From a virus, in the IMG/VR virus record IMGVR_UViG_3300035670_000026, positions 64,001-128,000 of that record: DNA of 64,000 bases. One strand, 5' to 3'. Position numbers and translations under genes: made by a program. The notes beneath the pieces are model-generated. The model saw only the letters and a list, made by a program, of their open reading frames with translations. It was not told the DNA's origin and did no database searches. Within the stretch, counting starts at the first letter, position 1, and every line of letters starts with the position of its first letter. Positions 661 through 64,000 of this stretch are shown here, in pieces.

Positions 661-661
661 T

Positions 662-2136: not shown

Positions 2137-2170
2137 TCTTACCATATTTATATGAGATAAATCCTAAAGA

Positions 2171-5100
2171 ATGGCTCAAGTAAGATTCCTAGACCAAGTT
2201 CCAGTTGGCGTATATAATGTAGATCCTACGGGTACCGGTGCTGGTACCATTGATATATACCAAAATGGTACACTAGTAAGCGCTAGTGTTCCATATATTA
2301 ATATCAGCGGTTCAGCTGAGGTTTTAGGATTTGCACCATTCGGTACAAATAATGGTGTTACAATATACGTTTCTGGAGTAGGATTTCCATTTTCAGGTTC
2401 AGCCGAAATTACAGGATCTTTAGTAATCTCAGGTTCTGAGACTTATCCTATTATAATTCAAACCCTTCCGGTTCAAGATATTGAGTACGTAGTAACGTAC
2501 AACCCAATAACAGGTACTTTAGGATATGTAAATGCTACTTCTGGAACAAGCGGTATTTCAGGAACATCAGGAGCTTCAGGACAATCAGGCACTTCAGGAA
2601 CAAGTGGTACAGCAGGTACTACAGGAACTGCGGGTAACTCAGGTAATTCTCAAACTTCAGGTACAAGCGGTACCTCAGGTACAAATGGTTCAAGTGGTAC
2701 AGAAGGTATCTCAGGAATAAGTGCAACTTCTGGCACTAGTGGTACTAGTGGTTCAACAGGTACTTCAGGAAATAGTGAAAATTCAGGAACTAGTGGAACG
2801 AGTGGTACAAGTGGTACTAATGGTTCTGCTGGTACTTCTGGTATAAGTGAAAATAGTGGTACTTCAGGTACTTCCGGTACAAGTGGAACTAATGGTTCAT
2901 TAGGTACATCAGGAGAAAGCCAAACATCAGGTACTTCAGGTACTTCTGGGACAGCAGGTTCTTCAGGAACTGCGGGTGAATCAGGAAATAGTAAAACATC
3001 AGGAACTAGCGGTACTAGCGGTACTAGCGGTACTAGCGGTACTAGTGGTACAAGTGGTACAAACGGTAGCGCAGGTACAGCTGGTATAAGTGAAACCTCA
3101 GGTACAAGTGGTACCTCAGGAACAAGCGGTACAAATGGTTCTTCAGGAACTGCGGGTGAATCAAGCATAAGTGAAACTTCAGGCACTTCAGGCACTTCAG
3201 GTACCTCAGGAACAGCAGGTTCATCTGGAACCGCTGGTGAATCAGGTATAAGTGAAACCTCAGGTACAAGTGGTACTTCAGGTACTAATGGTAGTGCAGG
3301 TACAGCAGGTGCTTCACAAACAAGTGGTACAAGTGGTACTTCAGGTACCTCAGGTACAAATGGTAGTTCAGGTACTTCAGGAGAAAGTAATGTAAGTGGT
3401 ACTTCAGGAACATCTGGAACCTCAGGTAGTACTGGTACTTCTGGTACTTCAGGTAATGATGGTACTTCTGGCATATCTAGTACTTCAGGTACTAGTGGAA
3501 CTTCAGGTACTAGTGGTACAAGTGGTACAACAGGTACTGCTGGTTTAGATGGATTTGATGGTGTAAGTGGTGCTAGTGGTTCTTCAGGTTCTTCAGGTAC
3601 TAGTGGAACTTCAGGTTCTGTAGGTACAGCAGGTACTTCAGGAGTATCACAAACAGCAGGTACATCTGGTACTTCAGGTACATCTGGTACCAATGGTACA
3701 GCCGGTACATCAGGAAATAGTCAAACTTCAGGTACAAGCGGAACATCAGGTTCTTCAGGTACTTCTGGAGAAGATGGTACAAGTGGTACATCTGGTATTT
3801 CAGCTACAAGTGGAACTTCAGGTACCAACGGTTCAAACGGTACAGCAGGAGCTGCTGGACAATCAGGAGCAAGCGCTACTTCAGGTACTAGTGGAACTTC
3901 AGGTAGTACAGGTACTTCAGGGTTAAGTGGAAATTCAGATTCTTCAGGTACTAGTGGTACATCAGGTACTTCTGGTACATCTGGTACTGCAGGTTCTGCT
4001 GGTACTGCAGGTACAGCAGGAAATAGTGAAACAGCAGGTACATCAGGTACTTCAGGTACAAGCGGAACTAACGGTTCAGCTGGTACATCAGGTAATAGTG
4101 AAACCTCAGGTACTTCAGGAACTAGTGGTACTTCAGGAACAAATGGTTCTGCAGGTACAGCAGGTGCTACTGGACAGTCAGGTGCAAGTGCAACAAGTGG
4201 TACATCAGGAACTAGCGGTTCTACAGGTACTTCTGGTTTAAGTGGAAATAGTGAAACCTCTGGTACAAGTGGTACATCAGGTACTTCTGGTACGAGTGGT
4301 ACAACAGGTTCATCAGGAACCGCTGGTGAGTCAGGTACTAGTGAAACCTCAGGTACTAGCGGTACTAGTGGTACTAGCGGAACAAATGGTTCTTCTGGTA
4401 CAGCTGGTATTTCTGGTAATAGTGAAACTTCAGGTACATCTGGTACTTCAGGTACAAGTGGAACCAACGGTTCAGCAGGTACAGCTGGAGTTGCAGGTCA
4501 ATCAGGTGCAAGCGCTACTTCAGGTACAAGTGGAACAAGTGGTTCTACAGGTACATCAGGTTTAGCAGGAGTTAGTGAAACTTCAGGCACTTCGGGTACA
4601 AGTGGAACTTCAGGTACATCAGGAACAACAGGTTCATCTGGAACAGTTGGTGAATCAGGTACAAGTGGCACTTCAGGTACTTCAGGTACTTCAGGCACTT
4701 CAGGCACTTCAGGCACTTCAGGTACAAACGGTTCATCAGGAACATCAGGCGAATCAGGTACTAGTGCAACTTCAGGTACATCAGGTACAAGCGGAACTAA
4801 TGGTTCATCAGGAACTGCCGGAGCTGCAGGTCAATCAGGTGCAAGTGCAACTAGTGGTACCTCAGGTACTTCAGGTAGTACTGGTACTTCAGGTTTAGCA
4901 GGCGAAAGCAAAACATCAGGTACATCAGGTACTTCAGGTACTTCAGGTACAAACGGTTCATCAGGAACAGCAGGCGAATCAGGAAATAGTGAAACTTCTG
5001 GTACAAGTGGTACTAGTGGTACTAGTGGTACTAGTGGTACAAACGGTTCTTCAGGAACGGCAGGTGCTTCTGGTAATAGTGAAACATCAGGAACAAGTGG

Positions 5101-8100
5101 CACTTCAGGTACTTCAGGTACTAATGGTAGTACGGGTACAGCAGGTGCTGCTGGTCAGTCAGGTGCTAGTGCAACCTCAGGTACAAGTGGAACAAGTGGT
5201 TCTACAGGTACATCAGGTTTAGCAGGTGAAAGTAAAACTTCAGGTACAAGTGGAACTAGCGGTACTAATGGTAGCGCTGGAACAGCCGGTGCTTCTCAAA
5301 CAAGTGGTACTAGCGGTACATCAGGTACTAATGGTAGTGTAGGTACAGCTGGAGTTGCAGGTATTTCTGAAACAAGTGGTACTTCTGGTACAAGCGGTAC
5401 TAATGGTAGTGCTGGAACAACCGGTACTTCTCAAACAAGCGGAACTTCAGGTACTAGTGGTACTAACGGTTCAGCAGGTACTGCTGGAGCCGCTGGACAA
5501 TCAGGAGCTAGTGCAACAAGTGGTACAAGCGGAACAAGTGGTTCTACAGGTACTTCAGGATTAAGTAGCGACTCAGGTTCTGCAGGTACAAGTGGTACTA
5601 GTGGTACTTCCGGAACGAGCGGAACAAATGGTTCTTCTGGTACAGCAGGTGCTTCGGGCAATTCAAGAACTTCAGGAACTAGTGGTACAAGCGGTACAAA
5701 TGGTAGCGCAGGTACTTCTGGTATAAGTGATATATCAGGTACAAGTGGTACTTCAGGCACTTCAGGTACTTCAGGAACAAATGGTTCAAATGGTACAGCA
5801 GGTGCTGCTGGACAATCAGGAGCTAGTGCAACAAGTGGCACTTCAGGCACTTCAGGTTCTACAGGTACTTCAGGATTAGCAGGTGAAAGCAAAACATCAG
5901 GTACTAGCGGTACTTCAGGTACAAATGGTAGTGCAGGTACAGCAGGCGCTTCACAAACAAGTGGAACTTCTGGTACAAGCGGTACAAACGGTAGCGCAGG
6001 TACAGCAGGTGCTGCTGGATTAAGCAGAACATCAGGTACCTCAGGTACAAGCGGAACTAACGGTTCAGCAGGTACTGCCGGTAACTCAGGAAATAGTCAA
6101 ACTTCAGGTACAAGCGGTACCTCAGGAACAAATGGTAGCACGGGTACAGCCGGAGCTGCAGGACAATCAGGTGCAAGTGCTACAAGTGGTACTAGTGGTA
6201 CCTCAGGTAGTACAGGTACTTCAGGTTTAGCAGGCGCTTCTCAAACATCAGGTACAAGTGGTACTTCTGGTACTTCTGGTACTTCAGGCACAAATGGTAG
6301 CGTTGGAACAGCAGGCATTTCAGGTGATAGTAAAACATCAGGTACAAGTGGTACAAGCGGTACTAATGGTTCATCAGGTACTAACGGTAACGCAGGTGTT
6401 TCAGGTTTAAGTTCAACTTCAGGCACTAGCGGAACTTCAGGTTCATCAGGTACCTCAGGTTTAGCACGTACATCAGGTACTAGTTCAACAAGTGGAACTA
6501 GTGGTACAAGTGGAACAAATGGTTCTTCTGGTACAGCAGGTGCTTCAGGAAATAGTCAAACATCTGGAACTTCAGGTACTAGCGGTACAACAGGCAGTGC
6601 AGGTACAGCAGGCCAATCAGGTAATTCTCAAACAAGTGGCACCTCAGGTACAAGCGGTACAAGTGGAACAAATGGTTCTTCTGGTACAGCAGGTGCTGCT
6701 GGATTAAGTAGAACATCCGGTACAAGTGGTACTAGCGGAACTAATGGTTCAAATGGCACTTCAGGAAATGCAGGTACAGCAGGTGCAAGTGCGACTTCAG
6801 GTACAAGTGGTACAAGCGGTACTAATGGTTCATCAGGTACTAACGGTAACGCAGGTGTTTCAGGATTAAGTTCAACTTCAGGCACTAGTGGCACTTCAGG
6901 TTCATCAGGTACCTCAGGTTTAGCCCAAAATTCAGGAACATCAGGCACAAGTGGTACTAGCGGAACAAATGGCTCTGCAGGTACAAACGGTGCCTCAGGA
7001 AATAGTAGAACTTCTGGTACTAGTGGTACTAGTGGTACAGCTGGTACCTCAGGTACAGCAGGAGCTTCAGGAAATAGTCAAACATCAGGTACTAGTGGTA
7101 CAAGTGGCACAGCAGGTTCTGCTGGTACTGCAGGTACAGCAGGTGCTTCAGGTGATAGTAAAACATCAGGTACTAGCGGTACATCAGGAACTAATGGTTC
7201 AGCAGGTACAGCAGGAGCTGCTGGATTAAGTCAGACATCAGGTACTAGTGGTACTAGCGGAACTAATGGCTCAACAGGTACAGCGGGAGTTTCAGGTAAT
7301 AGTAGAACAGCGGGTACATCCGGTACAAGCGGTACAAGTGGTACTAACGGTTCAAACGGAACTTCAGGTAATGCAGGTGTTTCAGGATTAAGCTCTACAA
7401 GTGGCACTTCAGGAACAAGTGGTTCAAGTGGTACTTCAGGTTTAGCTCAAACAGCTGGTTCAAGTTCAGCTTCTCAAACAAGCGGCACCTCAGGTACTAG
7501 TGGTACATCAGGAGCTACTCAAACAGCAGGTTCAAGTTCATCATCACAAACTAGTGGTACAAGCGGTACTTCAGGAACTAATGGTTCATCAGGTACGGCA
7601 GGTGCATCCGGTAATAGTAGAACATCAGGAACATCAGGAACTAGCGGAACAAACGGTTCAGCTGGTACAGCAGGTTCTTCACAAACTTCTGGCACTTCAG
7701 GTACAAGCGGTACAGCTGGTTCAAATGGTACAGCCGGTGTAGCAGGTGCTTCTCAAACAAGTGGTACAAGCGGTACAAGTGGTACAAACGGTAGTGCTGG
7801 TACAGCAGGTGCTTCTGGATTAAGTAGAACATCAGGCACAAGTGGTACTTCAGGTACAAACGGTTCATCAGGTACTAATGGAAACGCAGGTGTTTCAGGA
7901 TTAAGCTCTACAAGTGGCACTTCAGGCACTTCAGGTTCATCAGGTACTTCAGGTTTAGCCCAAAATTCAGGCACTTCAGGTACTTCAGGTACAAGCGGAA
8001 CAAATGGTTCATCTGGTACAAATGGTGCTGCTGGAAACAGCAGAACTTCAGGAACAAGTGGTACTAGCGGTACAGCAGGTTCTGCAGGTACAAATGGTAC

Positions 8101-9877: not shown

Positions 9878-9899
9878 AATATTTATATAAAAACATTAA

Positions 9900-12800
9900 A
9901 TGGCTAAAAATGTAACCATAATACCAGGTTCGGGTTCGTTAGAATTTACAGATTCTAATGGCAAGTCAATTAAAATGGTTCTTACCGGATCATTAAATGA
10001 CACTTTAATGTTTGTAAGTGGTAGTGTTCCTATTATGGAAATAAATCCCACTAATGGTTTGGATACAAATAAACCTCCTAAATTTAATGAGGTACCAGAA
10101 GACAATAATTTACCAAATTACCTTGTATACAACGTAAATAATGGGTCTATAGGTTATAGATCAATAGCAAATGGTTCATCTGGTACAGCAGGTACTACAG
10201 GCACTAGTGGACCAAGTAGAACATCAGGCACATCAGGCACATCAGGAACAAACGGTTCTGCTGGTACAAATGGAGCATCAGGAGCAAGCCGTACTTCAGG
10301 TACATCAGGAACAAGTGGTACAGCAGGTAGTGCGGGTACTAGTGGTGCTGCACGGACAGCAGGTTCAAGCTCAGCATCACAAACTTCAGGTACAAGTGGT
10401 ACAAGCGGTACTTCAGGAGCTACTCAAAACGCTGGTTCTAGTTCTGCATCACGGACTTCAGGTACATCCGGTACTAGTGGAACAAATGGTTCTACAGGTA
10501 CAAATGGAGCCGCAGGTGCTTCAGGTACTTCTAGAACCTCAGGTACTAGTGGTACAAATGGTAGTGCTGGTACAAATGGTAATGCCGGTGTCTCAGGGGC
10601 TAGTTCAACCTCAGGTACTTCAGGGACTAGTGGTTCCTCAGGCACTTCAGGTTTAGCACAGACCGCAGGTTCAAGCTCAAACAGCCGGACTTCAGGTACA
10701 AGTGGTACAAGCGGTACTTCAGGTGCTGCACGGAATGCTGGTACAAGCTCTGCATCTCAAACCTCAGGAACCTCAGGTACAAGCGGTACAAATGGTAGTA
10801 TAGGTACAGGAGGTGCAGCTGGAGCATCAGGACAATCACGGACTTCTGGTACAAGCGGAACTTCAGGTACAGCAGGTAGCGCAGGTACTTCAGGTGCTTC
10901 ACGTACTGCCGGTTCAAGCTCATCTTCACAAACCTCAGGAACTAGTGGTACAAGTGGTACCTCAGGAGCAACCCAATCTGCAGGTTCAAGCTCAGCATCA
11001 CAAACTTCAGGTACAAGCGGCACAAGCGGTACTAATGGTAGTGCTGGTACAAACGGAATAGCAGGAGCATCAGGTGTAAGCCGAACTTCAGGAACGTCAG
11101 GAACAAATGGCTCAAATGGTACTTCAGGTGCTAATGGGGCTTCAGGAAATAGTAGAACCTCAGGAACTAGTGGTACAAGCGGTACTAATGGTTCATCAGG
11201 TACAAATGGTAACGCAGGTGTTTCAGGAGTTTCTCCAACCTCAGGTACAAGTGGAACTAGTGGTTCTTCAGGAACAAGTGGTTTAGCACAGACCGCAGGT
11301 TCAAGCTCAAACAGCCGGACTTCAGGTACAAGTGGTACCTCAGGTACATCAGGAGCTGCACGGAATGCAGGTTCAAGTTCTGCAAGCTTTACTTCAGGTA
11401 CAAGTGGTACCTCAGGAACAAATGGTAGTGCAGGTACAGGAGGTGCAGCTGGAGCATCAGGACAATCACGAACTTCTGGTACTTCAGGAACAAACGGTTC
11501 AGCAGGTACAAACGGAGCTTCAGGAGCTTCACGAACTTCAGGCACTAGTGGTACTTCAGGTACAGCAGGTAGCGCAGGTACTTCAGGTGCTGCACGGACA
11601 GCAGGTTCAAGTTCATCATCTCAAACCTCAGGTACAACAGGTACAAGTGGTACCTCAGGAGCAACCCAATCTGCAGGTTCAAGTTCTGCATCACGGACTT
11701 CAGGTACTTCCGGTACCTCAGGTACAAATGGTTCAGCTGGTACTAATGGCAACGCCGGTGCTTCAGGCGTAAGCCGGACTTCAGGTACTTCAGGTACAAA
11801 TGGTTCAAGTGGTACTTCAGGAGCAAATGGTGCCTCTGGAGTATCAAGAACTTCCGGAACTAGTGGTACTAATGGCTCTTCAGGTACAAGTGGTAATGCT
11901 GGAGCTTCAGGAGTTGCTTCAACTTCAGGCACAAGTGGTACTTCAGGTTCTTCAGGTACTTCAGGTTTAGCACGAACAGCAGGACAAAGTACCTCATCTC
12001 AAACCTCAGGTACAAGTGGTACAAATGGTTCAAGTGGTGCTGGTAGAACAGCTGGTACAAGTTCAGCATCACAAACTTCAGGTACAAGCGGCACAAGCGG
12101 TACTTCAGGTGCTGTACAAACAGCAGGTTCAAGCTCAAACAGTCGGACTTCAGGTACAACAGGTACTTCAGGAACATCAGGTGCAAACCAAAATGCTGGT
12201 TCAAGCTCAGCATCACGGACTTCAGGTACATCAGGTACTTCAGGTACAAATGGTAGTTCGGGTACTTCAGGTATTTCAGGTGCTGCTGGTGTAAGTGGAG
12301 CAAGCCAAACCTCAGGTACAACAGGTACAAGTGGTACCTCAGGAGCAACCCAATCTGCAGGTTCAAGTTCTGCATCACGGACTTCAGGAACAAGTGGCAC
12401 TTCAGGAACGTCAGGAGCTACACGGACATCAGGTTCAAGTTCATTATCACAAACCTCAGGTACAAGTGGTACAAATGGTTCAAGTGGTGCTGGTAGAACA
12501 GCTGGTACAAGTACCGCCTCTCAAACTAGTGGTACAAGTGGTACAAGTGGTACAGGAGGTGCAACTACAAACGCAGGTGCTAGTTCAGCATCACGGACTT
12601 CAGGCACAAGTGGTACTAGCGGTACTTCTGGACAAGGACGGAGTGCAGGTACAAGTACAGCAAGTTTTACCTCAGGCACATCAGGTACAAGTGGTTCAAC
12701 AGGTGCTGCACGTACTGCAGGACAAAGTACAGCATCACAAACCTCAGGTACTTCAGGTTCAAGTGGAACATCAGGTGCGGCCACAGTCGCAGGTTCAAGT

Positions 12801-13328
12801 TCAAACAGCCGAACTTCAGGTACAACAGGTACTTCAGGAACATCAGGTGCTGCTAGAACAGCTGGACAAAGTTCAGCAAGCCGGACTTCAGGAACCAATG
12901 GTACATCAGGTACTTCAGGTGCTGCAAGAACTTCAGGTACAAGTTCAGCTTCTGGAACTTCAGGAACAAGTGGCGTATCAGGTACCTCAGGTTTATCATT
13001 TAATGGTACTAGTGGTATTAGTGGTGGTGTATTTACTAACCAACCAGATTATTTAGTTAAAACTACAGGAACAACTACAATACAAAGTGTATCATTTTTA
13101 TCAGTTTCAGGTGCTACTTTAAATGTAACAGGTACTGTTGCTACTAGTTTTTTACAAGTAGATAATGCAGGTGGGTTTTTTAATTTTCAACCCCCAGGTG
13201 GTCCTAACGGAGTAGATCAAGTTTATACAAATATAAACCCAAATTTTGTATTAGGTGAACCAGATGTTTGGTTGATAGTAAACGTAAATGGAATTGATTA
13301 TGTATTTCCGGGATATGCAGCTCCGTAA
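9900..13328 (+). CDS. Second Gly-Thr-Ser repeat fibre-like protein (1142 aa)
   Basis: About 90-aa unique N-terminus, about 950 aa of GTS/GSS/SRT triplets and about 100-aa unique C-terminus; ATATTTATA upstream. Confidence 0.75.
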   Translation: MAKNVTIIPGSGSLEFTDSNGKSIKMVLTGSLNDTLMFVSGSVPIMEINPTNGLDTNKPPKFNEVPEDNNLPNYLVYNVNNGSIGYRSIANGSSGTAGTTGTSGPSRTSGTSGTSGTNGSAGTNGASGASRTSGTSGTSGTAGSAGTSGAARTAGSSSASQTSGTSGTSGTSGATQNAGSSSASRTSGTSGTSGTNGSTGTNGAAGASGTSRTSGTSGTNGSAGTNGNAGVSGASSTSGTSGTSGSSGTSGLAQTAGSSSNSRTSGTSGTSGTSGAARNAGTSSASQTSGTSGTSGTNGSIGTGGAAGASGQSRTSGTSGTSGTAGSAGTSGASRTAGSSSSSQTSGTSGTSGTSGATQSAGSSSASQTSGTSGTSGTNGSAGTNGIAGASGVSRTSGTSGTNGSNGTSGANGASGNSRTSGTSGTSGTNGSSGTNGNAGVSGVSPTSGTSGTSGSSGTSGLAQTAGSSSNSRTSGTSGTSGTSGAARNAGSSSASFTSGTSGTSGTNGSAGTGGAAGASGQSRTSGTSGTNGSAGTNGASGASRTSGTSGTSGTAGSAGTSGAARTAGSSSSSQTSGTTGTSGTSGATQSAGSSSASRTSGTSGTSGTNGSAGTNGNAGASGVSRTSGTSGTNGSSGTSGANGASGVSRTSGTSGTNGSSGTSGNAGASGVASTSGTSGTSGSSGTSGLARTAGQSTSSQTSGTSGTNGSSGAGRTAGTSSASQTSGTSGTSGTSGAVQTAGSSSNSRTSGTTGTSGTSGANQNAGSSSASRTSGTSGTSGTNGSSGTSGISGAAGVSGASQTSGTTGTSGTSGATQSAGSSSASRTSGTSGTSGTSGATRTSGSSSLSQTSGTSGTNGSSGAGRTAGTSTASQTSGTSGTSGTGGATTNAGASSASRTSGTSGTSGTSGQGRSAGTSTASFTSGTSGTSGSTGAARTAGQSTASQTSGTSGSSGTSGAATVAGSSSNSRTSGTTGTSGTSGAARTAGQSSASRTSGTNGTSGTSGAARTSGTSSASGTSGTSGVSGTSGLSFNGTSGISGGVFTNQPDYLVKTTGTTTIQSVSFLSVSGATLNVTGTVATSFLQVDNAGGFFNFQPPGGPNGVDQVYTNINPNFVLGEPDVWLIVNVNGIDYVFPGYAAP
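10170..13025 (+). repeat. Degenerate Gly-X-Y coding tandem repeat
   Basis: Same 9-nt periodicity as the first repeat; recurrent blocks AGSSSASQTSGTSG and SRTSGTSG. Confidence 0.95.
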
Positions 13329-13334
13329 TTAAAC

Positions 13335-13363
13335 TTGGATATTTAAATATTTTTATTTATATT
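13335..13363 (+). promoter_or_regulatory. TTGG-N19-TATATT promoter for the glycosylation cassette
   Basis: TTGG at 13335-13338 and TATATT at 13358-13363; the same spacing occurs at nine other sites upstream of gene starts. Confidence 0.65.
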
Positions 13364-13381
13364 TATTGGAAATATTCTGTT

Positions 13382-15373
13382 ATGAAAAAATTGTTATATA
13401 TTGCTCCACATTTATCTACAGGTGGACTACCTCAATATTTAACTAAAAAAATTGAATTACTTAAAGATGAATTCGACATCTACCTTGTAGAATGGGCAGA
13501 TGTTACGGGTGGTGTTTTAGTAGTAACACGAAATAAAATTCTTAAATTAGTTAAACCTGATAATTTTTTTACATTAGGTGAAAATAAAATAGAATTAATT
13601 GATATAATTAATCGTGTTCAACCCGATATTGTTCATACTGAAGAAATTCCTGAGTTTTATATGGATTTTGATGTAGCATCTAAATTATATAAAACAGACC
13701 GCAAATATATTATTGTAGAAACCTCACACGATTCATCATTTGATACAACCCAGAAAAAATTTTACCCAGATAAATTTATGTTTGTATCAAATTGGCAAAT
13801 TGAACAATATAAAGATATTGATATTCCACGCGTATTAGTCGAATATCCTATCGAATATATTGAACGCCCTAACCGCGAAGAGGCACTGCGTAAATTACAA
13901 TTAGACCCCGCTAAAAAACACATTTTACACGTTGGGTTATATACCTCTCGCAAAAATCAAGCTGAATTTTTTGAATATGCTCGTTCAATGCCTGAATATG
14001 AATTTCATAGTTTAGGTAATAGAGCTGATAATTTTAAATGGTATTGGGAACCATTATCTAATGATACTCCTCCAAATTTAACCTGGTGGAATGAACGCAC
14101 AGATGTAGATGCTTTTTATCAAGCAATGGATTTATTTTTATTTACATCTCGTGGTTCAGCAAATGATAAAGAAACAATGCCTTTAGTTATTCGTGAAGCA
14201 ATTTCATACCAAACTCCAGTTTTGATTTATAATTTAGGTGTTTATCAAAATTATTTTGATAAATTTAAAGGAGTAAAATATCTTGAATTTGATAATTTTG
14301 AAAAAAATTGTGAATTAATTAAAGAAGTTGTAGAAACAAAAGAAACAATCGATATTGAACAAGAAGCAATTATTATTTCTACATATCCTATTCAACAAAG
14401 TGTAATAGATTCTACAAAAGAATGCATTGAATCTTTTAAACAAACAGGAAGAAAAATTATATTAACTTCTCACGTTCCTATTCCTGAAGAATTACAAGAA
14501 TTAGTTGATTATTGTGTTTATGATAAAAATAATTTATTAACTAAACACGATTTTTATTATCATTGCTGGGTTGATTATGGACATTTTAAAGTAAATACAA
14601 TTTTACAAGGTGAAGACAATGATGTTTATCATGGTCCTGCTGTTTATACAAATTATTATAACGCAGCTTCATTAGCAAAAAATATAGGAACTAAAAAATT
14701 ATTTTTTATTAATTACGACTATATCCTTACTAACCCAGAATTTATAAATGAAATTTCTTTTAAATTAAATAAGAAAAAAGCATTTGTTGATGAAAGAAAA
14801 TATTCAGAGGGTGAAGTAAGTAGTACTTTCTTTATAGGTATTCAAACAGATTTATTCTTTAAAACTCACGAATTTATTTCTACAGCTGCTGGATATGATA
14901 ATTTAAAACATAAAGTAGGTAGTTTATCTAATGGTTATGAAAATATATTCTATTTTGCTTTACAACCTTTTAGAAATCAAATTCATATAGAATCAGCTGA
15001 AAATTGGGATAAATTAATTAGTGAAAATTTTAAACACAATAATTTTTCTCGTATAGAATATACTACTGTTTTACCAACTAATGTTGAAAATCATTTTGCT
15101 ATTTACTATCAAAATTCAAATGAAGTAGATAGTAGAAATTTAGTTGTAAGCGCTATAGAAGAAGGACAAGAAATTTTTAATGAAACTATTAACATTACTA
15201 GTAAATTTGCTTGGTATAGACTTCATCAAATCAATGATAAAGAACTTATAATTAATTTTGAGTTTTATGATGCTCATAATAATAAGTTTTTAAGTAAAAA
15301 AACTATTGTTGTAAATAAAGATTACATTGATAATAAATTACAAACAAACGGACTTTTAGAAAAAGTATTATGA
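13382..15373 (+). CDS. GT-B (GT4-like) glycosyltransferase with additional C-terminal domain
   Basis: HLSTGGLPQY N-terminal motif; HVGLYTSRKNQ; FYQAMDLFLFTS...ETMPLVIREAIS (E-X7-E). Confidence 0.85.
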   Translation: MKKLLYIAPHLSTGGLPQYLTKKIELLKDEFDIYLVEWADVTGGVLVVTRNKILKLVKPDNFFTLGENKIELIDIINRVQPDIVHTEEIPEFYMDFDVASKLYKTDRKYIIVETSHDSSFDTTQKKFYPDKFMFVSNWQIEQYKDIDIPRVLVEYPIEYIERPNREEALRKLQLDPAKKHILHVGLYTSRKNQAEFFEYARSMPEYEFHSLGNRADNFKWYWEPLSNDTPPNLTWWNERTDVDAFYQAMDLFLFTSRGSANDKETMPLVIREAISYQTPVLIYNLGVYQNYFDKFKGVKYLEFDNFEKNCELIKEVVETKETIDIEQEAIIISTYPIQQSVIDSTKECIESFKQTGRKIILTSHVPIPEELQELVDYCVYDKNNLLTKHDFYYHCWVDYGHFKVNTILQGEDNDVYHGPAVYTNYYNAASLAKNIGTKKLFFINYDYILTNPEFINEISFKLNKKKAFVDERKYSEGEVSSTFFIGIQTDLFFKTHEFISTAAGYDNLKHKVGSLSNGYENIFYFALQPFRNQIHIESAENWDKLISENFKHNNFSRIEYTTVLPTNVENHFAIYYQNSNEVDSRNLVVSAIEEGQEIFNETINITSKFAWYRLHQINDKELIINFEFYDAHNNKFLSKKTIVVNKDYIDNKLQTNGLLEKVL

Positions 15374-16317
15374 AAATATGCCAAGTAAATCCAGGTTGTG
15401 GTATTCCTATTCCTCCTCCAGCATGGGGAGCAATTGAAAAAATTGTATGGGAATTTATGTGCAATCTAAAAAAATTAGGACACGAAGTAGATTTAAAATG
15501 GGCCAATGAAGTACAACCAGGTGAATATGATGTTGTGATGGTTCACGTTGCTAATTTAGCAATTGAATTAGCTAACAGAGGTATTCCCTATGTATTTCAA
15601 CATCACGACCACCATGCATATCATTACGGAAAAGATTCATTTATTTATAAAGAAAATAGAGAAGCAATGGAACGCTCTGTTTTTTCTTTAGTTCCTGCTC
15701 GTTATTTAGTTGAATATTTTGATTTACCTAATGTGTATTATTTTTCACACGGGGCGGATACAAAAAGTTTTTATCCAAATCAAACACCTCCATTAATGCA
15801 TAATTTATTAATGGTTGCAAATAATGGTTTAGGTGGTTATGGAGCATATGATAGAAAAGGATTTGGATTAGGAGTCCAAATAGCAATGTCTCGTAATTTA
15901 CCTATTACAATTGCTGGTCCTAAAAATAATGAAAAATGGCTTAAAGATAATCCTTGGGTATTAGGTTATCCTAAATTAACAATGGCTTGGGATATTCCAA
16001 ATGAGGAATTAAGACAACTTTATACATCACATACAATATTTTTACATCCAAGTGAATTAGAAGCTGGACATCCTAATTTAACCTTACTAGAGGCAGCAGC
16101 TTGTGGTTTACCTATTTTAGGATGGATTGAGATGGAAACTACATTTCATGGATTATGGAGAGCACCTCGTGATTTAAACTTGCTTCTTAAAGGATTAGAT
16201 GTTATTATTAATGAATATGGAGACTATAGACAACGTTCACTTAATACAGCAAAAGAATTATCATGGTTAAATCGCTCAAAAGAATTAATAGAATTATTTA
16301 AAAAACATGCGCACTAA
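15370..16317 (+). CDS. GT4-family glycosyltransferase
   Basis: IPPPAWGAIEKIV; RKG; FLHPSELEAGHPNLTLLEAAACGLPI. Confidence 0.9.
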   Translation: MKICQVNPGCGIPIPPPAWGAIEKIVWEFMCNLKKLGHEVDLKWANEVQPGEYDVVMVHVANLAIELANRGIPYVFQHHDHHAYHYGKDSFIYKENREAMERSVFSLVPARYLVEYFDLPNVYYFSHGADTKSFYPNQTPPLMHNLLMVANNGLGGYGAYDRKGFGLGVQIAMSRNLPITIAGPKNNEKWLKDNPWVLGYPKLTMAWDIPNEELRQLYTSHTIFLHPSELEAGHPNLTLLEAAACGLPILGWIEMETTFHGLWRAPRDLNLLLKGLDVIINEYGDYRQRSLNTAKELSWLNRSKELIELFKKHAH

Positions 16318-16993
16318 ATTTTATACAAAAAACGACCAAATAATTGATATTTCAACTTGGGATACATCCTTAAGCCAAAATGAAATGGGAGATAAATATG
16401 GTTGGGAAGGATCTATGGCTTTTGGAAATTTAATTCACGATGAATTAAATCAATGGGGTCCTGGTATGCAATATGGAGATATTTATCTTGATTTAGGAGC
16501 AAATATTGGTATGTCTGCTCTTAGAGCAGAATCAAAAGGTTGCTCAAAAATATACTGTGTAGAACCAGACCCAGGAGTATTTGAAGCTTTAAATAAAAAT
16601 AAAAACTATAATTGGATTGTTGATAATATAGCTATTGGTTCCGAAAGAGGATACATTGACATTCCAAAATGGCCTAACTGGTGGGATACTCAACCTATCC
16701 AATGTATTACTTTAGATGAATTTTTTGCAAAACATAATCTTACAAAAGTAGATTACATGAAAGTTGATATTGAAGGACATGAAAAATATGTTTTTAATAA
16801 TGTTAGTCAAATTACATGGGATAAAATTAATAAAATATTTTTTGAATTTCATGAAGATGTAGATACATTAAGCACTGAACAACGAAATGAAGAAAGAATA
16901 AAATTCTGCCAATTCTATTCAGATAAAGGTTTTAATAATCATCATGTCGATTTAGGATACTATCAAAGTTTTATTTATTTTTGGAAATCATGA
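16307..16993 (+). CDS. FkbM-family SAM methyltransferase
   Basis: YLDLGANIG, CVEPDP, ITLDEF, VDYMKVDIEGHE and FEFH motifs. Confidence 0.9.
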   Translation: MRTKFYTKNDQIIDISTWDTSLSQNEMGDKYGWEGSMAFGNLIHDELNQWGPGMQYGDIYLDLGANIGMSALRAESKGCSKIYCVEPDPGVFEALNKNKNYNWIVDNIAIGSERGYIDIPKWPNWWDTQPIQCITLDEFFAKHNLTKVDYMKVDIEGHEKYVFNNVSQITWDKINKIFFEFHEDVDTLSTEQRNEERIKFCQFYSDKGFNNHHVDLGYYQSFIYFWKS

Positions 16994-18192
16994 AAGAAGT
17001 TTTAATAAACGAATATAACAATACTGAAATTTTAAGGATATCTCATAGAGAACCTGAAAATACTTTTAATATTAATTTTTTAGATGGACCTTTTGTAGAA
17101 GTTTTAGGTCCTTTACAAAAAGAATATCTTATTAAATTTGTTAATACTAAAACTAATCGTGTTTTATTCGAGAATACTATTACTAATAATATGTGGACTC
17201 GTTCTAATATAAAATACTTAGTTAAATGGCGTATTGAAATTTATGATAAAAAAACAGGTGAAAAAATTATTGAACATACATTTAATCCTCAAGGAAAACG
17301 AGTTTATATTCATTTAGATTCATCTGCTGTAGGTGATACATTAGCATGGTTTCCTCTTATTGAAGAATTTAGAAAAGAAAATAATTGTGAAGTAGCTTGT
17401 TCAACTTTTCATAATGAATGGTTTGAAAAAAACTACCCTAAATTAGAATTTATAAAACCAGGTACTGAAGTACGTGATTTATATGCTATGTTTACTATTG
17501 GGTGGTTTTATGATAATAAAAAAGTTGTATTTGATAGAACACCAATTGATTTTAAAAAATATCCTTTACAACAAACCGCTACAGAAATTTTAGGATTAAA
17601 ATATAAAGAAGTTAAACCTCAATTAGTAACTCCTGAACGAAAAACAGATATTGAAGGAAAATATGTTGTAATTGCTCCCCATGCTTCAGCACATGCTAAG
17701 TATTGGATGTATCCAGGAGGATGGCAAACAGTTATTGATTATTTAAACGAAAAAGGATATAAAGTAGCAATGATTACTGGTGAACCTTTAAATGATGATT
17801 GGCACGATTCAAAACTTGGAGGTACATTAACTGGAGTAATCGATAAAACAGGATTTCACATTGATTTAGAAGATAGAATGATAGACATTCGTGATGCTTC
17901 TGCTTTTATTGGTTTAGGAAGTGGATTAAGTTGGTTATCTTGGGCATTAAATACTCCTACAGTTTTAATTTCCGGATTTAGTTATCCATATACTGAATTT
18001 CAGGATTGTGAAAGAATTTACCCTAAAGATCCTAAAACATGTAGAGGATGTTTTAACCGCCATTGGTTAAACCCAGGAGATTGGGAATGGTGTCCTGATC
18101 ATAAAAATACTCCTCGTCAATTTGAATGTACAAAAGTTATTGAACCTTCTCAAATAATAGAATCTCTTAATAAACTTCTTAATATTTATTAA
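16990..18192 (+). CDS. Autotransporter heptosyltransferase-like (TibC/Aah, BAHT) protein O-glycosyltransferase
   Basis: SAVGDTLAWFP, PLQQTATEILGL, AKYW..PGGWQTVIDYL, FIGLGSGLSWLSWALNTPTVLISGFSYPYTEF, and the four-Cys iron finger CRGCFN...WCPDHKNTPRQFECTK. ATG at 16990. Confidence 0.85.
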   Translation: MKEVLINEYNNTEILRISHREPENTFNINFLDGPFVEVLGPLQKEYLIKFVNTKTNRVLFENTITNNMWTRSNIKYLVKWRIEIYDKKTGEKIIEHTFNPQGKRVYIHLDSSAVGDTLAWFPLIEEFRKENNCEVACSTFHNEWFEKNYPKLEFIKPGTEVRDLYAMFTIGWFYDNKKVVFDRTPIDFKKYPLQQTATEILGLKYKEVKPQLVTPERKTDIEGKYVVIAPHASAHAKYWMYPGGWQTVIDYLNEKGYKVAMITGEPLNDDWHDSKLGGTLTGVIDKTGFHIDLEDRMIDIRDASAFIGLGSGLSWLSWALNTPTVLISGFSYPYTEFQDCERIYPKDPKTCRGCFNRHWLNPGDWEWCPDHKNTPRQFECTKVIEPSQIIESLNKLLNIY

Positions 18193-20770: not shown

Positions 20771-20807
20771 AAAAGAGCTCGCGATTTTTCGCGAGCTTCT
20801 TTTTTTC
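20771..20807 (+). terminator. Rho-independent terminator after tail tube
   Basis: AGCTCGCGA-tttt-TCGCGAGCT hairpin followed by a T run. Confidence 0.85.
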
Positions 20808-54448: not shown

Positions 54449-56062
<1,614 letters not shown>

Positions 56063-61943: not shown

Positions 61944-61944
61944 T

Positions 61945-63237: not shown

Positions 63238-63685
63238 CCTAATTAATTGCACTCGTTGTGGTTCTGATGCTTGTTATATAGATGAAGTAAATCAGGATAT
63301 TAAAACTTATTTTTGTTATGGATGCGGTTTTCAAACTAATTCATTAATGAAAGTAGGAGAATCATTTTATGAAGAACAAATAAATATTTTACCTGAACTC
63401 TATAAAGACTTAATGGTTGAAGACCAAGATGGTAAAATTTGGATGCCCTCAACTATAAATTTACCTCAACAAGGTATGATTTTTGCTAATGGGTCTGATT
63501 CAAGAAATTGGGGATGGTCAGCAGTAAAAGCTGTTCCTGTTAGTGAAGAAGAAAAAGAAAAATATCCTATTCCTGGTAAAAAAGGAGAATTTTATGAATG
63601 GAGAATGGATATGACTACTATAAAAAACTTTGTTGAACGTGATTTTATAGATGCTCTTTCGTACATTGGAGTTTTACCGGAATAA
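63230..63685 (+). CDS. Zinc-ribbon hypothetical protein
   Basis: CTRC...C and CYGCGF motifs. Confidence 0.65.
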   Translation: MDNLINCTRCGSDACYIDEVNQDIKTYFCYGCGFQTNSLMKVGESFYEEQINILPELYKDLMVEDQDGKIWMPSTINLPQQGMIFANGSDSRNWGWSAVKAVPVSEEEKEKYPIPGKKGEFYEWRMDMTTIKNFVERDFIDALSYIGVLPE

Positions 63686-63696
63686 AATATAATAAT

Positions 63697-64000
63697 ATGA
63701 AAAAAATATGGTACGCCCCTTATAAATTTGAATCTTATGGGGAAGAAGAAATCAAAGCTGTAGAAGAATCACTCCGTTCAGGATGGTTAGGTGGACAAGG
63801 TCCTAAATCAGTTGAATTTGAAGAAAAAATTGCTAAGCGATTTGGTAAAAAATATGGTATATTTGTCAACTCAGGTTCATCTGCATGTTTATTAGCTATT
63901 GCTGCTTTAAATTTACCTAAAGGGTGTAAAATTATTACTCCATCCTGTACATTTTCAACAACATTAGCTCCTATCCTTCAACTTGGTTACAAACCAGTAT
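63697..64000 (+). CDS. DegT/DnrJ/RfbH-family PLP-dependent sugar enzyme, 3'-truncated by the window edge
   Basis: Hand translation: MKKIWYAPYKFESYGEEEIKAVEESLRSGWL...FEEKIAKRFGKKYGIFVNSGSSA...ITPSCTFSTTLAPILQLGYKPV. Confidence 0.88.
   Translation, partial: MKKIWYAPYKFESYGEEEIKAVEESLRSGWLGGQGPKSVEFEEKIAKRFGKKYGIFVNSGSSACLLAIAALNLPKGCKIITPSCTFSTTLAPILQLGYKPV

What the first reader, a model, noticed from the sequence alone, without database searches (positions are those of the whole stretch)
2171..18192. Candidate phage protein O-glycosylation system: giant Ser/Thr fibres next to their own glycosylation cassette
Seen: two huge proteins made almost entirely of Gly-Thr-Ser triplets (by eye, half or more of the repeat residues are Ser/Thr). 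They are followed immediately by GT4, GT4, an FkbM methyltransferase and a TibC/Aah-like enzyme, all placed between the tail-completion and sheath genes. Established: TibC/Aah (BAHT) enzymes hyper-glycosylate serines in repetitive passenger domains of neighbouring autotransporters. FkbM-family enzymes commonly occur in glycan loci as O-methyltransferases. Inference: the BAHT homologue primes the fibre Ser/Thr residues, the GT4 enzymes extend the glycan and FkbM caps it. This would give a mucin-like glycosylated virion appendage, possibly for shielding, adhesion, drag or host recognition.
Basis: partly seen in the sequence, partly recalled or inferred. Interest (0 to 1): 0.87.

Follow-up and report, generated by a model that had tools for sequence, protein, structure and literature searches.

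The report
Phage collagen fibres with glycosylation cassette
A 150-kb aquatic phage encodes two very long, proline-free, serine/threonine-rich collagen-like fibres directly beside a TibC-type protein sugar-transferase and its helper enzymes, and the same pairing recurs in many other phage contigs, so the fibres are probably sugar-coated, though nobody has shown this experimentally.

Summary
The two giant proteins (2568 and 1142 aa) are collagen-like Gly-X-Y proteins with X mostly Thr, Y mostly Ser and almost no Pro. Every interruption keeps the triplet register.

The BAHT passes NCBIfam TIGR04414 and keeps the catalytic Asp and the four iron-finger Cys. The "tail-completion" label on the upstream genes was not verified.

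- More than 536 IMG/VR contigs encode a relative of the BAHT.
- On a tree, the phage-type clade is separate from the bacterial clade that sits next to AIDA-type adhesins.
- In the phage-type clade, 62 of 79 informative loci have a collagen-like ORF within 10 kb. This holds across at least four gene arrangements, two of them with GT4–BAHT fusions.
- The linked collagens are almost all G-(T/S)-S type, which is rare among viral collagens in general (3 of 62 sampled). Two of those three also have a BAHT gene about 6 kb away or less.

Glycosylation itself, the donor sugar and the order of enzyme action remain inference. No paper describing this pairing was found. Earlier first-stage notes of this scan cover the same genome only. 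I rate it a new variant of a known kind.

The parts
2145..2152 (+). Promoter-like motif (A)TATTTATA, 26 nt upstream of the first fibre gene. The same motif lies at 9880, 13354, 18463, 20242, 20813 and 21878, ahead of the second fibre, GT4a, sheath, tube, hub-like and 21897 genes.
   Evidence: The motif sits 19-40 nt before these gene starts, and 15 of the 16 window matches are on one strand. Function as a late promoter is inferred, not shown.
2171..9877 (+). Collagen-like fibre protein 1 (P0001, 2568 aa). It has an N-terminal domain of about 124 aa. A Gly-X-Y array of about 2240 aa follows (X=Thr, Y=Ser, no Pro), with in-register Gly->Q/R/A/E/S/K substitutions every 7-8 triplets or so. After the array comes a fibre motif (AGNGLTGGG...RTLDV) and a C-terminal beta-sandwich knob.
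9900..13328 (+). Collagen-like fibre protein 2 (P0002, 1142 aa). Its Gly-X-Y array of about 950 aa has frequent 12-residue in-register interruptions. Its N- and C-terminal domains differ from those of P0001.
   Evidence: The C-terminal 98 aa recur at the ends of the collagen ORFs in related loci (the col2C hits).
13382..15373 (+). GT4a (663 aa). The N-terminal half is a GT4 glycosyltransferase. The C-terminal ~330 aa are unassigned and have look-alikes only in viruses.
   Evidence: Conserved next to BAHT in nearly all related loci.
15370..16317 (+). GT4b (315 aa) glycosyltransferase. Its start overlaps the end of GT4a.
16307..16993 (+). FkbM-family methyltransferase (228 aa), overlapping both neighbouring genes.
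   Evidence: TIGR01444 78.7 bits, cut-off 37.7. In sister loci it is present, absent, or replaced by other tailoring enzymes.
16981..18192 (+). BAHT-family (TibC/Aah-type) protein O-glycosyltransferase (403 aa from the TTG start; an ATG lies at 16990).
   Evidence: The match to TibC is full length. D119, K240, R, W318 and the four Cys (354, 357, 371, 383) are conserved. TibC residues were taken from PMC4358343.
18194..18442 (+). Small conserved ORF (82 aa) starting 1 nt after the BAHT gene. Function unknown.
   Evidence: no family match. Conserved between BAHT and sheath in most loci of arrangement A.
60498..64000 (+). Start of a second glycan gene cluster that may supply or extend the sugar. 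In the window it has two more GT4 genes (60498-61943, 61918-63237), an unassigned ORF, and the start of a DegT aminotransferase gene. It continues outside the window to about G000:136.7 kb with RmlD-like, GT2, DUF707, an rfaE-domain-I-like heptose-7-P kinase, RmlC-like, SDR dehydratase/epimerases and a CmcI-like methyltransferase.
   Evidence: The link to the fibre cassette is inferred only.

Best explanation
This is a late-expressed module for glycosylating a virion fibre.

**What is shown or predicted for the proteins**
- The two collagen-like proteins carry phage-fibre end domains.
- If the arrays form continuous triple helices at 0.286 nm per residue, the fibres would be about 0.64 um and 0.27 um long. 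These lengths are my own calculation from the array lengths.

**Proposed mechanism (inferred)**
- While the chains are still unfolded in the host cytoplasm, the BAHT-type enzyme transfers a nucleotide-activated sugar onto Ser hydroxyls. The donor is probably ADP-heptose or a derivative.
- The Y position of the triplets is the obvious acceptor, because it is Ser in nearly all BAHT-linked collagens.
- The GT4 enzymes then extend the sugar and FkbM O-methylates it.
- The glycan would hydrate and stabilise a triple helix that has no proline. It would also shield or functionalise the fibre.

**Status of each step**
- Shown: gene identities, conserved catalytic residues, linkage statistics, fusions and composition.
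- Inferred: that the fibres are the acceptor, the donor sugar, the enzyme order and the effect on the helix.
For: 1. **Enzyme identity.** The BAHT scores 292.6 bits on TIGR04414 (cut-off 200). It aligns with TibC end to end at E 8e-55. The catalytic Asp110, Lys230, Arg286, Trp305 and all four Fe-binding Cys are conserved.
2. **Compartment.** By established knowledge of the family, BAHTs act in the cytoplasm directly on proteins (PMC4358343). That is where phage fibres are made.
3. **Linkage from the enzyme side.** More than 536 viral contigs carry a relative.
   - On a tree of 126 representatives clustered at 90% identity, the phage-type clade (97 rows) separates with support 100 from a purely bacterial clade (29 rows).
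   - Bacterial-clade genes are typically followed directly by a large Gly- and Ser/Thr-rich ORF; the four scanned are AIDA-repeat adhesins. None of its 16 loci with full flanks has a collagen neighbour.
   - In the phage-type clade, 62 of 79 informative loci have a collagen-like ORF within 10 kb.
4. **The linkage survives rearrangement.**
   - Arrangement A is fibre, GT4, GT4, [FkbM], BAHT, sheath.
   - In arrangement B the cassette follows the gp23 capsid gene, with the collagen gene convergent downstream.
   - Microcystis phage Mel-JY01 has a collagen ORF, a structural protein and a GT4-...-BAHT fusion.
   - The huge phage LR756501 has a collagen ORF, a GT4 and a GT4-BAHT fusion.
5. **Composition.** In 61 deduplicated BAHT-linked loci, Ser is the commonest Y residue in 58, and median Pro is 0.
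   - In an arbitrary sample of 62 viral collagen loci, only 3 are of this type.
   - Two of those 3 have a BAHT gene about 6 kb away or less. None of the other 59 had one in the DNA held. If the two BAHT loci fell among the 62 at random, the chance of both landing in the group of three is 3/1891.
6. **Co-expression signals.** GT4a, GT4b, FkbM and BAHT overlap or abut. No terminator-like site with a strong stem lies between 2171 and the hairpin at 20775. The fibres, the cassette, the sheath and the tube share an upstream ATATTTATA motif.
7. **Fibre identity.** P0001 has a fibre motif and a confident beta-sandwich C-terminal knob, shared with phage tail-fibre-like and collagen-repeat proteins.
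8. **Sugar supply.** The genome has a second cluster with an rfaE-domain-I-like heptose kinase, an RmlC-like epimerase, SDR enzymes, an aminotransferase and more GTs.
9. **Precedent.** The collagen-like BclA proteins are glycosylated, and C. difficile BclA3 is glycosylated by the SgtA transferase (PMC8968730; PMC7157674 abstract).
Against: - There is no experimental evidence of glycosylation, or even that these proteins are in the virion.
- The known BAHT acceptors are Ser residues in beta-helical AIDA/TibA repeats, which TibC holds inside a dodecameric ring. A collagen chain is a very different substrate.
- The TibC thumb-tip residues (F265/V266) are K/L here. The C6 stereoselectivity residue P300 is Gly, and T226 is Ser. 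Oligomeric state and donor sugar are therefore uncertain.
- Seventeen clade-II loci with full flanks lack a collagen neighbour. Thirteen of them form one subclade that instead has a giant non-collagen S74 fibre; in the one read in full (L192) a (Pro-Thr)n-linker protein follows it. The partner is therefore 'a long fibre' rather than strictly collagen.
- The rfaE-like kinase scores below its family cut-off, and no GmhA (SIS_2) was found.
- Fibre genes and glycosyltransferases also share hypervariable islands in T4-like aquatic phages for other proposed reasons (PMC7029224).
- The linkage counts come from related sequences and are not fully independent.
- The tree is a FastTree run with some long branches.
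Confidence: 0.6

Rival explanations
1. The cassette, and the second sugar cluster, remodel the host cell surface during infection. The target would be the LPS core or O-chain, and the purpose would be to block superinfection or prevent progeny from re-adsorbing. On this view the genes lie beside fibre genes only because both occupy the hypervariable host-recognition island.
For: - This is the published reading for glycosyltransferases and rfaE in the tail-fibre hypervariable region of pelagimyophages and cyanomyophages (PMC7029224).
- GT9 is chiefly an LPS heptosyltransferase family, and weak RfaQ/heptosyltransferase I hits are present.
- The genome carries a large nucleotide-sugar cluster.
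Against: - The enzyme matches the protein-specific BAHT model at 292.6 bits, against 36 bits or less for the LPS heptosyltransferase models. It also has the TibC-specific N-terminal barrel and iron finger.
- The link is specifically to Ser-at-Y, Pro-free collagens and holds in both directions. Island sharing does not predict that.
- The link persists when the cassette sits beside the capsid gene rather than the tail genes.
Confidence: 0.15
2. The cassette glycosylates other virion proteins, and the collagen-like fibres are neighbours but not substrates. Candidates are the capsid, the sheath, non-collagen parts of fibres such as the beta-helical segments and knobs, or linker-rich proteins.
For: - In arrangement B the cassette directly follows the gp23 major capsid gene.
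- In one subclade the neighbours are a non-collagen S74 fibre and, in L192, a (PT)n-linker protein.
- L038/L040 have a Gly/Ser/Thr-rich non-collagen fibre ending in a Peptidase_S74 domain; by eye its repeats look beta-helix-like, which would be closer to known BAHT acceptors.
- Mycobacteriophages are reported to have extensively glycosylated virion proteins (Freeman 2023, cited in PMC12582341).
Against: - The only neighbour common to arrangements A and B, Mel-JY01 and LR756501 is the collagen-like gene.
- The Ser-rich composition of the linked collagens is hard to explain if they are bystanders.
Confidence: 0.13
3. The BAHT homologue works mainly as a ring-shaped assembly chaperone or scaffold for threading and trimerising very long fibre chains. 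Sugar transfer would be secondary or lost.
For: - TibC forms a dodecameric ring that holds six substrate molecules inside (PMC4358343).
- Collagen chains this long need help with register.
Against: - The catalytic Asp and the donor-binding Lys and Trp are invariant across seven divergent phage homologues. The adenine-binding Arg is kept in the window protein but not in the most distant homologues.
- The enzyme always travels with further GTs and sugar-tailoring enzymes, which implies a real glycan product.
- The thumb residues used for ring assembly are not conserved.
Confidence: 0.05

Closest known systems
TibC / Aah bacterial autotransporter heptosyltransferases (BAHT family, GT9; PDB 4RAP/4RB4)
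   Same: - The architecture is the same from end to end: N-terminal barrel, GT-B core and 4-Cys iron finger.
- The catalytic Asp and the Lys/Arg/Trp that bind ADP-heptose are conserved.
- It passes the TIGR04414 cut-off.
- It is encoded next to a huge repetitive Ser-rich surface protein that is its presumed substrate.
   Different: - It belongs to a separate, phage-dominated clade.
- Its neighbour is a collagen-like Gly-X-Ser fibre, not an AIDA-repeat beta-helix.
- It is accompanied by GT4 enzymes, sometimes fused to it, and by methyl-, carbamoyl- or sulfo-transferases. This implies an extended, decorated glycan rather than single heptoses.
- The thumb-tip and C6-selectivity residues differ.
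BclA-type collagen-like spore glycoproteins of Bacillus and C. difficile (BclA3 with its SgtA glycosyltransferase)
   Same: - These are collagen-like Gly-X-Y surface filaments rich in hydroxy-amino acids.
- They are O-glycosylated, in C. difficile by the SgtA transferase.
- The glycan is thought to help hydration and stability (PMC8968730; PMC7157674).
   Different: - Their repeats are mostly G-P-T, with Thr at Y and Pro at X. Here the repeats are G-T-S with no Pro.
- The transferase family is different.
- Those are spore appendages tens of nanometres long, by my recollection. These would be phage fibres that could reach hundreds of nanometres.
Mycobacteriophage virion glycosylation (Freeman et al. 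2023, Cell Host Microbe 31:1216)
   Same: Virion proteins of a phage are extensively glycosylated. The phage-encoded glycosyltransferases and the cytoplasmic site of O-glycosylation are from my recollection of Freeman 2023. I could cite the paper only through PMC12582341; it is not held in the library.
   Different: By my recollection, the acceptors there are C-terminal extensions of capsid and tail-tube subunits, and the enzymes are not BAHT-type. The hosts are Actinobacteria, and no collagen-like fibres are involved.
Glycosyltransferase- and rfaE-rich hypervariable tail-fibre regions of pelagimyophages and cyanomyophages
   Same: These are T4-like aquatic myoviruses in which tail fibres, collagen-repeat proteins, many GTs and rfaE lie together (PMC7029224).
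   Different: The published reading is modification of the host O-chain. No link between a BAHT enzyme and collagen-like fibres is made there.

Membership tests
BAHT (TIGR04414 hepto_Aah_TibC) | Whole-protein score above the curated equivalog cut-off | tested here: met
   292.6 bits against a cut-off of 200, E 4.1e-87.
BAHT (TIGR04414 hepto_Aah_TibC) | Full TibC architecture: N-terminal beta-barrel plus GT-B catalytic domain | tested here: met
   The phmmer alignment runs from query 24-399 to TibC 20-386, E 8.3e-55. The fused Mel-JY01 homologue hits PF21129 TibC_1st weakly (E 5e-4, 20.5 bits, below the 27-bit cut-off).
BAHT (TIGR04414 hepto_Aah_TibC) | Catalytic base Asp110 and donor-binding Lys230, Arg286 and Trp305 | tested here: met
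   All four are conserved in the window protein (with residue roles from PMC4358343). D, K and W are invariant in 7 divergent phage homologues. Thr226 is Ser here.
BAHT (TIGR04414 hepto_Aah_TibC) | Four-Cys iron finger (TibC C339, C342, C358, C370) | tested here: met
   C354, C357, C371 and C383 are invariant in alignment A1.
BAHT (TIGR04414 hepto_Aah_TibC) | Beta-hairpin thumb contacts (F265/V266) used for dodecamer assembly | tested here: inconclusive
   The aligned residues are K and L, and the region contains gaps. The oligomeric state cannot be read from sequence.
BAHT (TIGR04414 hepto_Aah_TibC) | Encoded beside an autotransporter with AIDA-type repeats as substrate | tested here: not met
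   The neighbours are collagen-repeat proteins only. All four bacterial-clade downstream ORFs that were scanned do have PF16168 AIDA repeats. This is a contextual feature, not a sequence feature.
BAHT (TIGR04414 hepto_Aah_TibC) | Transfers heptose from ADP-heptose to protein Ser | not testable with these tools
   The residue that selects between D,D- and L,D-heptose (Pro300 in TibC, Ser294 in Aah) is Gly here. An rfaE-domain-I-like kinase is present but scores below its cut-off.
Collagen triple-helix repeat proteins (PF01391) | Gly at every third residue over long runs | tested here: met
   Pfam E 5e-204 and 1e-47. P0001 has 647 triplets in 87 runs and P0002 has 212 in 39 runs. Every gap but P0002's last (2 residues, at the array's end) is a multiple of 3 residues.
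Collagen triple-helix repeat proteins (PF01391) | Pro/Hyp or charged residues at X/Y to stabilise the helix | tested here: not met
   X is Thr and Y is Ser, with essentially no Pro and few charged residues. This is atypical compared with bacterial collagens, where X is 19-31% Pro and Y is 32-48% Thr (PMC8968730).
Collagen triple-helix repeat proteins (PF01391) | Actually forms a trimeric triple helix nucleated by a terminal domain | not testable with these tools
   The C-terminal knob is a confident beta-sandwich (pLDDT >90), shared with phage fibre proteins. Trimerisation was not modelled.
FkbM methyltransferase family (TIGR01444 / PF05050) | Score above the curated cut-off | tested here: met
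   78.7 bits against 37.7, and 59.3 bits against 22.7. The substrate is unknown.
GT4 glycosyltransferases (PF00534) | Score above the Pfam gathering threshold | tested here: met
   39.3 and 33.0 bits against 26.4.

The most novel reading that the evidence does not exclude
A phage-specific branch of the BAHT family glycosylates the Y-position serines of proline-free (Gly-Thr/Ser-Ser)n chains, and that glycan is what allows these chains to fold into stable triple helices. If so, abundant aquatic phages, including a Microcystis cyanophage and 0.6-0.7 Mb huge phages, would carry sugar-dependent collagen fibres up to about 0.6 um long. This would be a second, independent solution to collagen stabilisation besides hydroxyproline, and a widespread form of virion glycosylation.
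Probability: 0.3. Interest if true: 0.85.

Novelty: new variant of a known kind. Interest (0 to 1): 0.72.

Why it matters
- **Virion glycosylation.** To my knowledge it has been demonstrated in phages only for mycobacteriophages. This module occurs in more than 500 viral contigs, at least some from lake and other aquatic metagenomes, in a cultured Microcystis phage and in huge phages. Sugar-coated fibres could therefore be common in environmental phages. They could affect adsorption, host range, particle stability, aggregation or sinking, and recognition by grazers or immune systems.
- **Reach of the BAHT family.** It would extend a family known as a modifier of bacterial virulence adhesins to a new substrate class (collagen) and a new biological setting (viruses).
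- **Collagen folding.** It offers a testable answer to how collagens with no proline can fold.
- **Alternative to a published reading.** The many glycosyltransferases in the tail-fibre variable regions of aquatic T4-like phages are currently read as host O-antigen modification. This gives another reading.
- **Practical use.** A cytoplasmic enzyme that decorates simple G-T-S repeats would be a useful glyco-engineering tool.

Tried and rejected
- **Close relatives in GenBank phages.** A megablast of the cassette found nothing.
- **Upstream genes.** Pfam, PHROGs and PDB sequence searches on 662-1183 and 1183-2136 found nothing, so 'tail completion' could not be confirmed.
- **Fibre end domains.** The N-terminal domains of both fibres and the C-terminal domain of P0002 match no family. 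The two N-termini are not significantly alike.
- **P0001 knob.** Foldseek against the PDB gave no significant fold match.
- **GT4a C-terminal half.** There is no PDB or Pfam match. The ESM Atlas gave only viral hypothetical-protein clusters, with weak leads to GT25/WavE.
- **ADP-heptose pathway.** I found a kinase-like gene scoring below its cut-off and a weak cytidylyltransferase-like protein of 559 aa. There was no SIS_2/GmhA. Self-sufficiency for ADP-heptose is therefore unproven.
- **T4-type late promoter.** The total count of TATAAATA is no higher than in shuffles. Only the reverse motif's position ahead of gene starts is notable.
- **Artefact hypotheses.** I considered an assembly or low-complexity artefact and spurious ORFs, and rejected both. 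The DNA repeats are diverged, the frames are open for 7.7 and 3.4 kb, and homologous ORFs recur in dozens of contigs.
- **Literature.** The Mel-JY01 paper and Freeman 2023 are not held in the library.

Full report
**What is there**

The window is bases 64001-128000 of a 149.8-kb IMG/VR virus record estimated to be 92% complete. Between a weak head-tail-adaptor-like gene (34-660) and the tail sheath (18495-20225) and tube (20265-20753) genes lie two giant ORFs, at 2171-9877 (2568 aa) and 9900-13328 (1142 aa). Five tightly packed genes follow.

Both giant proteins are collagen-like. Pfam Collagen scores E 5e-204 and 1e-47.
- In P0001, 647 Gly-X-Y triplets fall in 87 runs averaging 7-8 triplets. 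X is Thr in 393 of them and Y is Ser in 422. There is no proline in the runs.
- Eighty of the 86 gaps between runs in P0001 are exactly one triplet in which Gly is replaced by Q, R, A, E, S or K. All the others are 6, 9 or 12 residues, so the register is never lost.
- P0002 behaves the same way but has many 12-residue interruptions, and its last gap, at the end of the array, is 2 residues.
- Residue shuffles of the repeat region give at most 273 residues in such runs, against 1932 observed.
- At DNA level the repeats are only 67-82% alike, with periods that are multiples of 9 nt. This argues for protein-level constraint and against an assembly artefact.
- These are the only collagen-like ORFs in the genome.

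**The fibre ends**

After the collagen array, P0001 carries the AGxGLTGGGxL...RTLxV motif seen in phage fibres. The only PDB hit for it is weak, to the tail collar fibre gp4 of 9d93.

P0001 ends in a domain of about 110 residues that AlphaFold models as a beta-sandwich with pLDDT above 90.
- This domain has 5137 homologues with E up to 0.001, lying at the C-terminus in most of the 150 best hits, whose proteins run from 150 to 3078 aa.
- Its structural neighbours in BFVD are phage 'collagen triple helix repeat', minor-tail and tail-fibre-like proteins, including ones from Prochlorococcus phage P-SSM2 and Synechococcus phage S-SM2.
- No solved fold matched significantly.

I therefore read both proteins as virion fibres. 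Where they attach is unknown. At 0.286 nm per residue (my calculation), uninterrupted helices would be about 640 nm and 270 nm long.

**The enzymes**

- 13382-15373 is a GT4 enzyme with an unassigned C-terminal half that has look-alikes only in viruses.
- 15370-16317 is a second GT4.
- 16307-16993 is an FkbM methyltransferase (TIGR01444 78.7 bits, cut-off 37.7).
- 16981-18192 is a BAHT. It scores 292.6 bits on TIGR04414 (cut-off 200) and aligns with TibC from residue 20 to 386 at E 8.3e-55.

I used the TibC structure paper (PMC4358343) to check functional residues.
- Conserved: the catalytic Asp110, the phosphate-binding Lys230, the adenine-binding Arg286, the heptose-binding Trp305, and the four Fe-binding Cys (339, 342, 358, 370).
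- Changed: Thr226 is Ser. The C6 stereoselectivity residue Pro300 is Gly. The thumb-tip residues Phe265/Val266 are Lys/Leu.
- Asp, Lys, Trp and the four Cys are invariant across seven phage homologues that share as little as 38% identity.

GT4a, GT4b, FkbM and BAHT overlap, and the 82-aa ORF starts one base after the BAHT gene. No terminator-like site with a strong stem appears between 2171 and the hairpin at 20775 after the tube gene. An ATATTTATA motif sits 19-40 nt upstream of both fibre genes, GT4a, and the sheath, tube, hub-like and 21897 genes. I infer that the fibres, the cassette and the tail genes are expressed together.

**Is the pairing more than neighbourhood?**

*From the enzyme side.* A first scan of IMG/VR found 232 contigs with a close relative, and a profile-based scan found more than 536.
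- Among the 80 closest loci (63-84% identity), almost every one that reached past the genes directly upstream of GT4a held a collagen-like ORF there. The order is fibre, GT4a, GT4b, [FkbM], BAHT, small ORF, sheath, tube.
- The exceptions with enough DNA carry other fibres or extra enzymes.
  - L038/L040 have a Gly/Ser/Thr-rich non-collagen fibre with a Peptidase_S74 chaperone, plus a sulfotransferase.
  - L028/L024 have a GT2-methyltransferase and a 2OG-Fe(II) oxygenase inserted.
- A second arrangement (L058-L063, L066, L068, L069) places the cassette directly after the prohead protease and gp23 capsid genes. There, FkbM lies between the two GT4 genes in most loci (it was not found in L060 or L066), a carbamoyltransferase (identified in L066, with an ORF of the same size in L063) follows GT4b, and a 2718-aa collagen gene with an S74 domain is convergent downstream.
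- The only GenBank phages with a homologue are Microcystis phage Mel-JY01 and three huge-phage assemblies.
  - In Mel-JY01 the BAHT domain ends a 1226-aa protein that begins with a GT4 domain. Two genes upstream lies an 805-aa collagen ORF, which the record annotates wrongly on the opposite strand.
  - In LR756501 a GT4-BAHT fusion sits beside another GT4 and a collagen-repeat gene.
  - LR756504 has no collagen ORF within 15 kb.

*Tree.* I combined the viral loci with 79 loci from bacterial genomes and clustered them at 90% identity, giving 126 representatives. A FastTree run splits them with support 100.
- Clade I has 29 rows, all bacterial. None of its 16 full-flank loci has a collagen neighbour.
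- In clade I a large Gly- and Ser/Thr-rich ORF typically starts about 100 nt after the BAHT gene. All four that I scanned carry PF16168 AIDA repeats. This is the classical system.
- Clade II has 97 rows: phage contigs, MAG contigs of Flavobacteriales, Ignavibacteria and Bacteroides, and a few chromosomal loci in Methylobacter and Arenicellales.
- In clade II, 62 of 79 informative rows have a collagen-like ORF within 10 kb.
- Thirteen of the 17 clade-II exceptions form one subclade. In the five loci inspected it has a 2000-2450-aa fibre (a Peptidase_S74 end was confirmed in L192), an ORF of about 550-760 aa (a GT4 fused to a TylF-type methyltransferase in L192) and the BAHT. L192 also has a (Pro-Thr)n-linker protein.

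*From the collagen side.* In 61 deduplicated BAHT-linked loci the commonest Y residue is Ser in 58. The median Ser+Thr share is 0.75 at X and 0.73 at Y, and the median Pro share is 0.

As a control, I scanned IMG/VR for any twelve consecutive GGN-N6 units and took the 80 loci returned.
- Sixty-two were real Gly-X-Y ORFs. They are mostly X = Pro/Ala/Asp and Y = Thr/Gln, as the literature describes (PMC8968730).
- Only three were Pro-free G-(T/S)-S.
- One of those three (L318) has a BAHT in the DNA held.
- A second (L302) lies about 5 kb from a 777-aa BAHT fusion in a complete 166-kb genome.
- The third is on a record that is only 29% complete.
- None of the other 59 had a BAHT in the DNA held, and neither of two large control records searched in full did.
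- If the two BAHT-positive loci fell at random among the 62, the chance that both land in the group of three is 3/1891.

These counts are not phylogenetically independent. Even so, the association holds across arrangements, fusions and deep branches.

**Mechanism**

*Shown.* There is a catalytically intact, TibC-like, Ser-directed enzyme family member. It travels with GT4 enzymes, sometimes fused to them. It also travels with interchangeable sugar-tailoring enzymes: FkbM, a TylF-like methyltransferase, a carbamoyltransferase and a sulfotransferase. And it sits beside long fibres that are overwhelmingly Ser-at-Y collagens.

*From established knowledge.* BAHTs act in the cytoplasm on Ser of repetitive proteins, using ADP-heptose. 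Collagen chains can only be modified before they trimerise. Glycosylation of BclA is thought to strengthen the hydration network of the helix (PMC4358343; PMC8968730).

*Inferred.* The BAHT primes Ser on nascent fibre chains, GT4a and GT4b extend the glycan, and FkbM methylates it. The glycan then stabilises and shields a proline-free helix.

The genome also has a second glycan cluster, from window 60498 to about G000:136.7 kb. It contains two GT4 genes, a DegT aminotransferase, an RmlD-like gene, a GT2, a DUF707 gene, an rfaE-domain-I-like kinase (E 1.6e-36 but below the cut-off), an RmlC-like epimerase, SDR enzymes and a CmcI-like methyltransferase. This cluster could make a modified heptose or deoxy-amino sugar. 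No GmhA was found.

**Rivals**

- The published reading of GT-rich tail-fibre islands in pelagimyophages is modification of the host O-chain (PMC7029224). It remains possible, especially for the second cluster. It does not explain the protein-specific enzyme type or the compositional link.
- Other virion proteins could be the acceptors: the capsid in arrangement B, PT-linker proteins, or beta-helical fibre segments.
- A purely chaperone role is unlikely given the invariant catalytic residues.

**Novelty**

Text searches found no paper that links BAHT enzymes to phages or to collagen-like proteins. Each component is known on its own: the BAHT family, glycosylated bacterial collagens, and virion glycosylation in mycobacteriophages. 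I therefore class this as a new variant of a known kind: a phage clade of BAHTs with a new presumed substrate class.

Earlier first-stage notes of this scan, on the same genome, had also flagged the intact four-Cys BAHT and the in-register proline-free Gly-X-Y arrays. My tests agree with them. I saw no notes on other DNA.

Noticed in passing
window 2145, 9880, 13354, 18463, 20242, 20813, 21878, 24504, 60260 (+ strand): The motif (A)TATTTATA(T/A) lies 19-40 nt upstream of many structural-gene starts. Fifteen of the 16 matches to the reverse-complement query are on one strand. It may be this phage's late-promoter element. The total count is no higher than in shuffles; only the placement is striking.
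   Followed up: partly
window 60498-64000, continuing to G000:C1:~136700 (L087): A second large glycan cluster: GT4, GT4, DegT aminotransferase, RmlD-like, GT2, DUF707, two unknown genes, an rfaE-domain-I-like PfkB kinase, RmlC-like epimerase, SDR dehydratase, CmcI-like methyltransferase and SDR epimerase. It resembles pathways for modified heptose or deoxy-amino sugars.
   Followed up: partly
window 54452-56062 (+): A phage-encoded GroEL-type chaperonin (PF00118 Cpn60_TCP1, E 8e-65).
   Followed up: no
L002 (Microcystis phage Mel-JY01, PP395634.1) 635-3052 (+): An 805-aa collagen-repeat ORF (Pfam Collagen E 1e-53) is not annotated. The GenBank record instead annotates an opposite-strand ORF (739-2298) and a short fragment (2519-3052). 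A further small collagen-like ORF lies at 9444-9986. The 1226-aa product annotated 'methyltransferase FkbM' is in fact a GT4-...-TibC-like fusion.
   Followed up: partly
L098, L099 (Arenicellales MAGs, one a 5.2-Mb chromosome); L091 (Methylobacter luteus): Chromosomal phage-type BAHT genes are flanked by small (146-287 aa) Ser-rich collagen-like ORFs. These could be prophage remnants, or a bacterial version of the same collagen-glycosylation pairing.
   Followed up: no
L192 6224-7384 (+) and sister loci: A 387-aa protein with long (Pro-Thr)n linkers lies between a giant S74 fibre and a GT4/TylF-methyltransferase fusion plus BAHT. It is another plausible O-glycosylation target in a lineage that lacks collagen.
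   Followed up: partly
L028 1745-2986 (also L024 3-1249); L040 6260-7078: Variant cassettes carry a 2OG-Fe(II) oxygenase (PF13640), a DUF6445 protein and a GT2-methyltransferase fusion (L028). L040 carries a sulfotransferase (PF13469). These suggest hydroxylation or sulfation steps in some lineages.
   Followed up: partly
L089, L090 (Winogradskyella and Flavobacteriales MAG contigs): The closest homologues in 'bacterial' genomes (62% and 55% identity) sit on short MAG contigs with the same collagen-GT-BAHT layout. They are probably phage contigs binned with their host. That hints at a Flavobacteriia host, which would fit the 31% G+C. This was not tested.
   Followed up: no
G000:C1:31586-33265 (L085 1435-3114): A 559-aa protein has a weak N-terminal cytidylyl/adenylyltransferase signature (TIGR00125, 29 bits). 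Mel-JY01 has a comparable 639-aa 'cytidylyltransferase-like' protein near its BAHT. It could be a nucleotide-sugar synthase.
   Followed up: no
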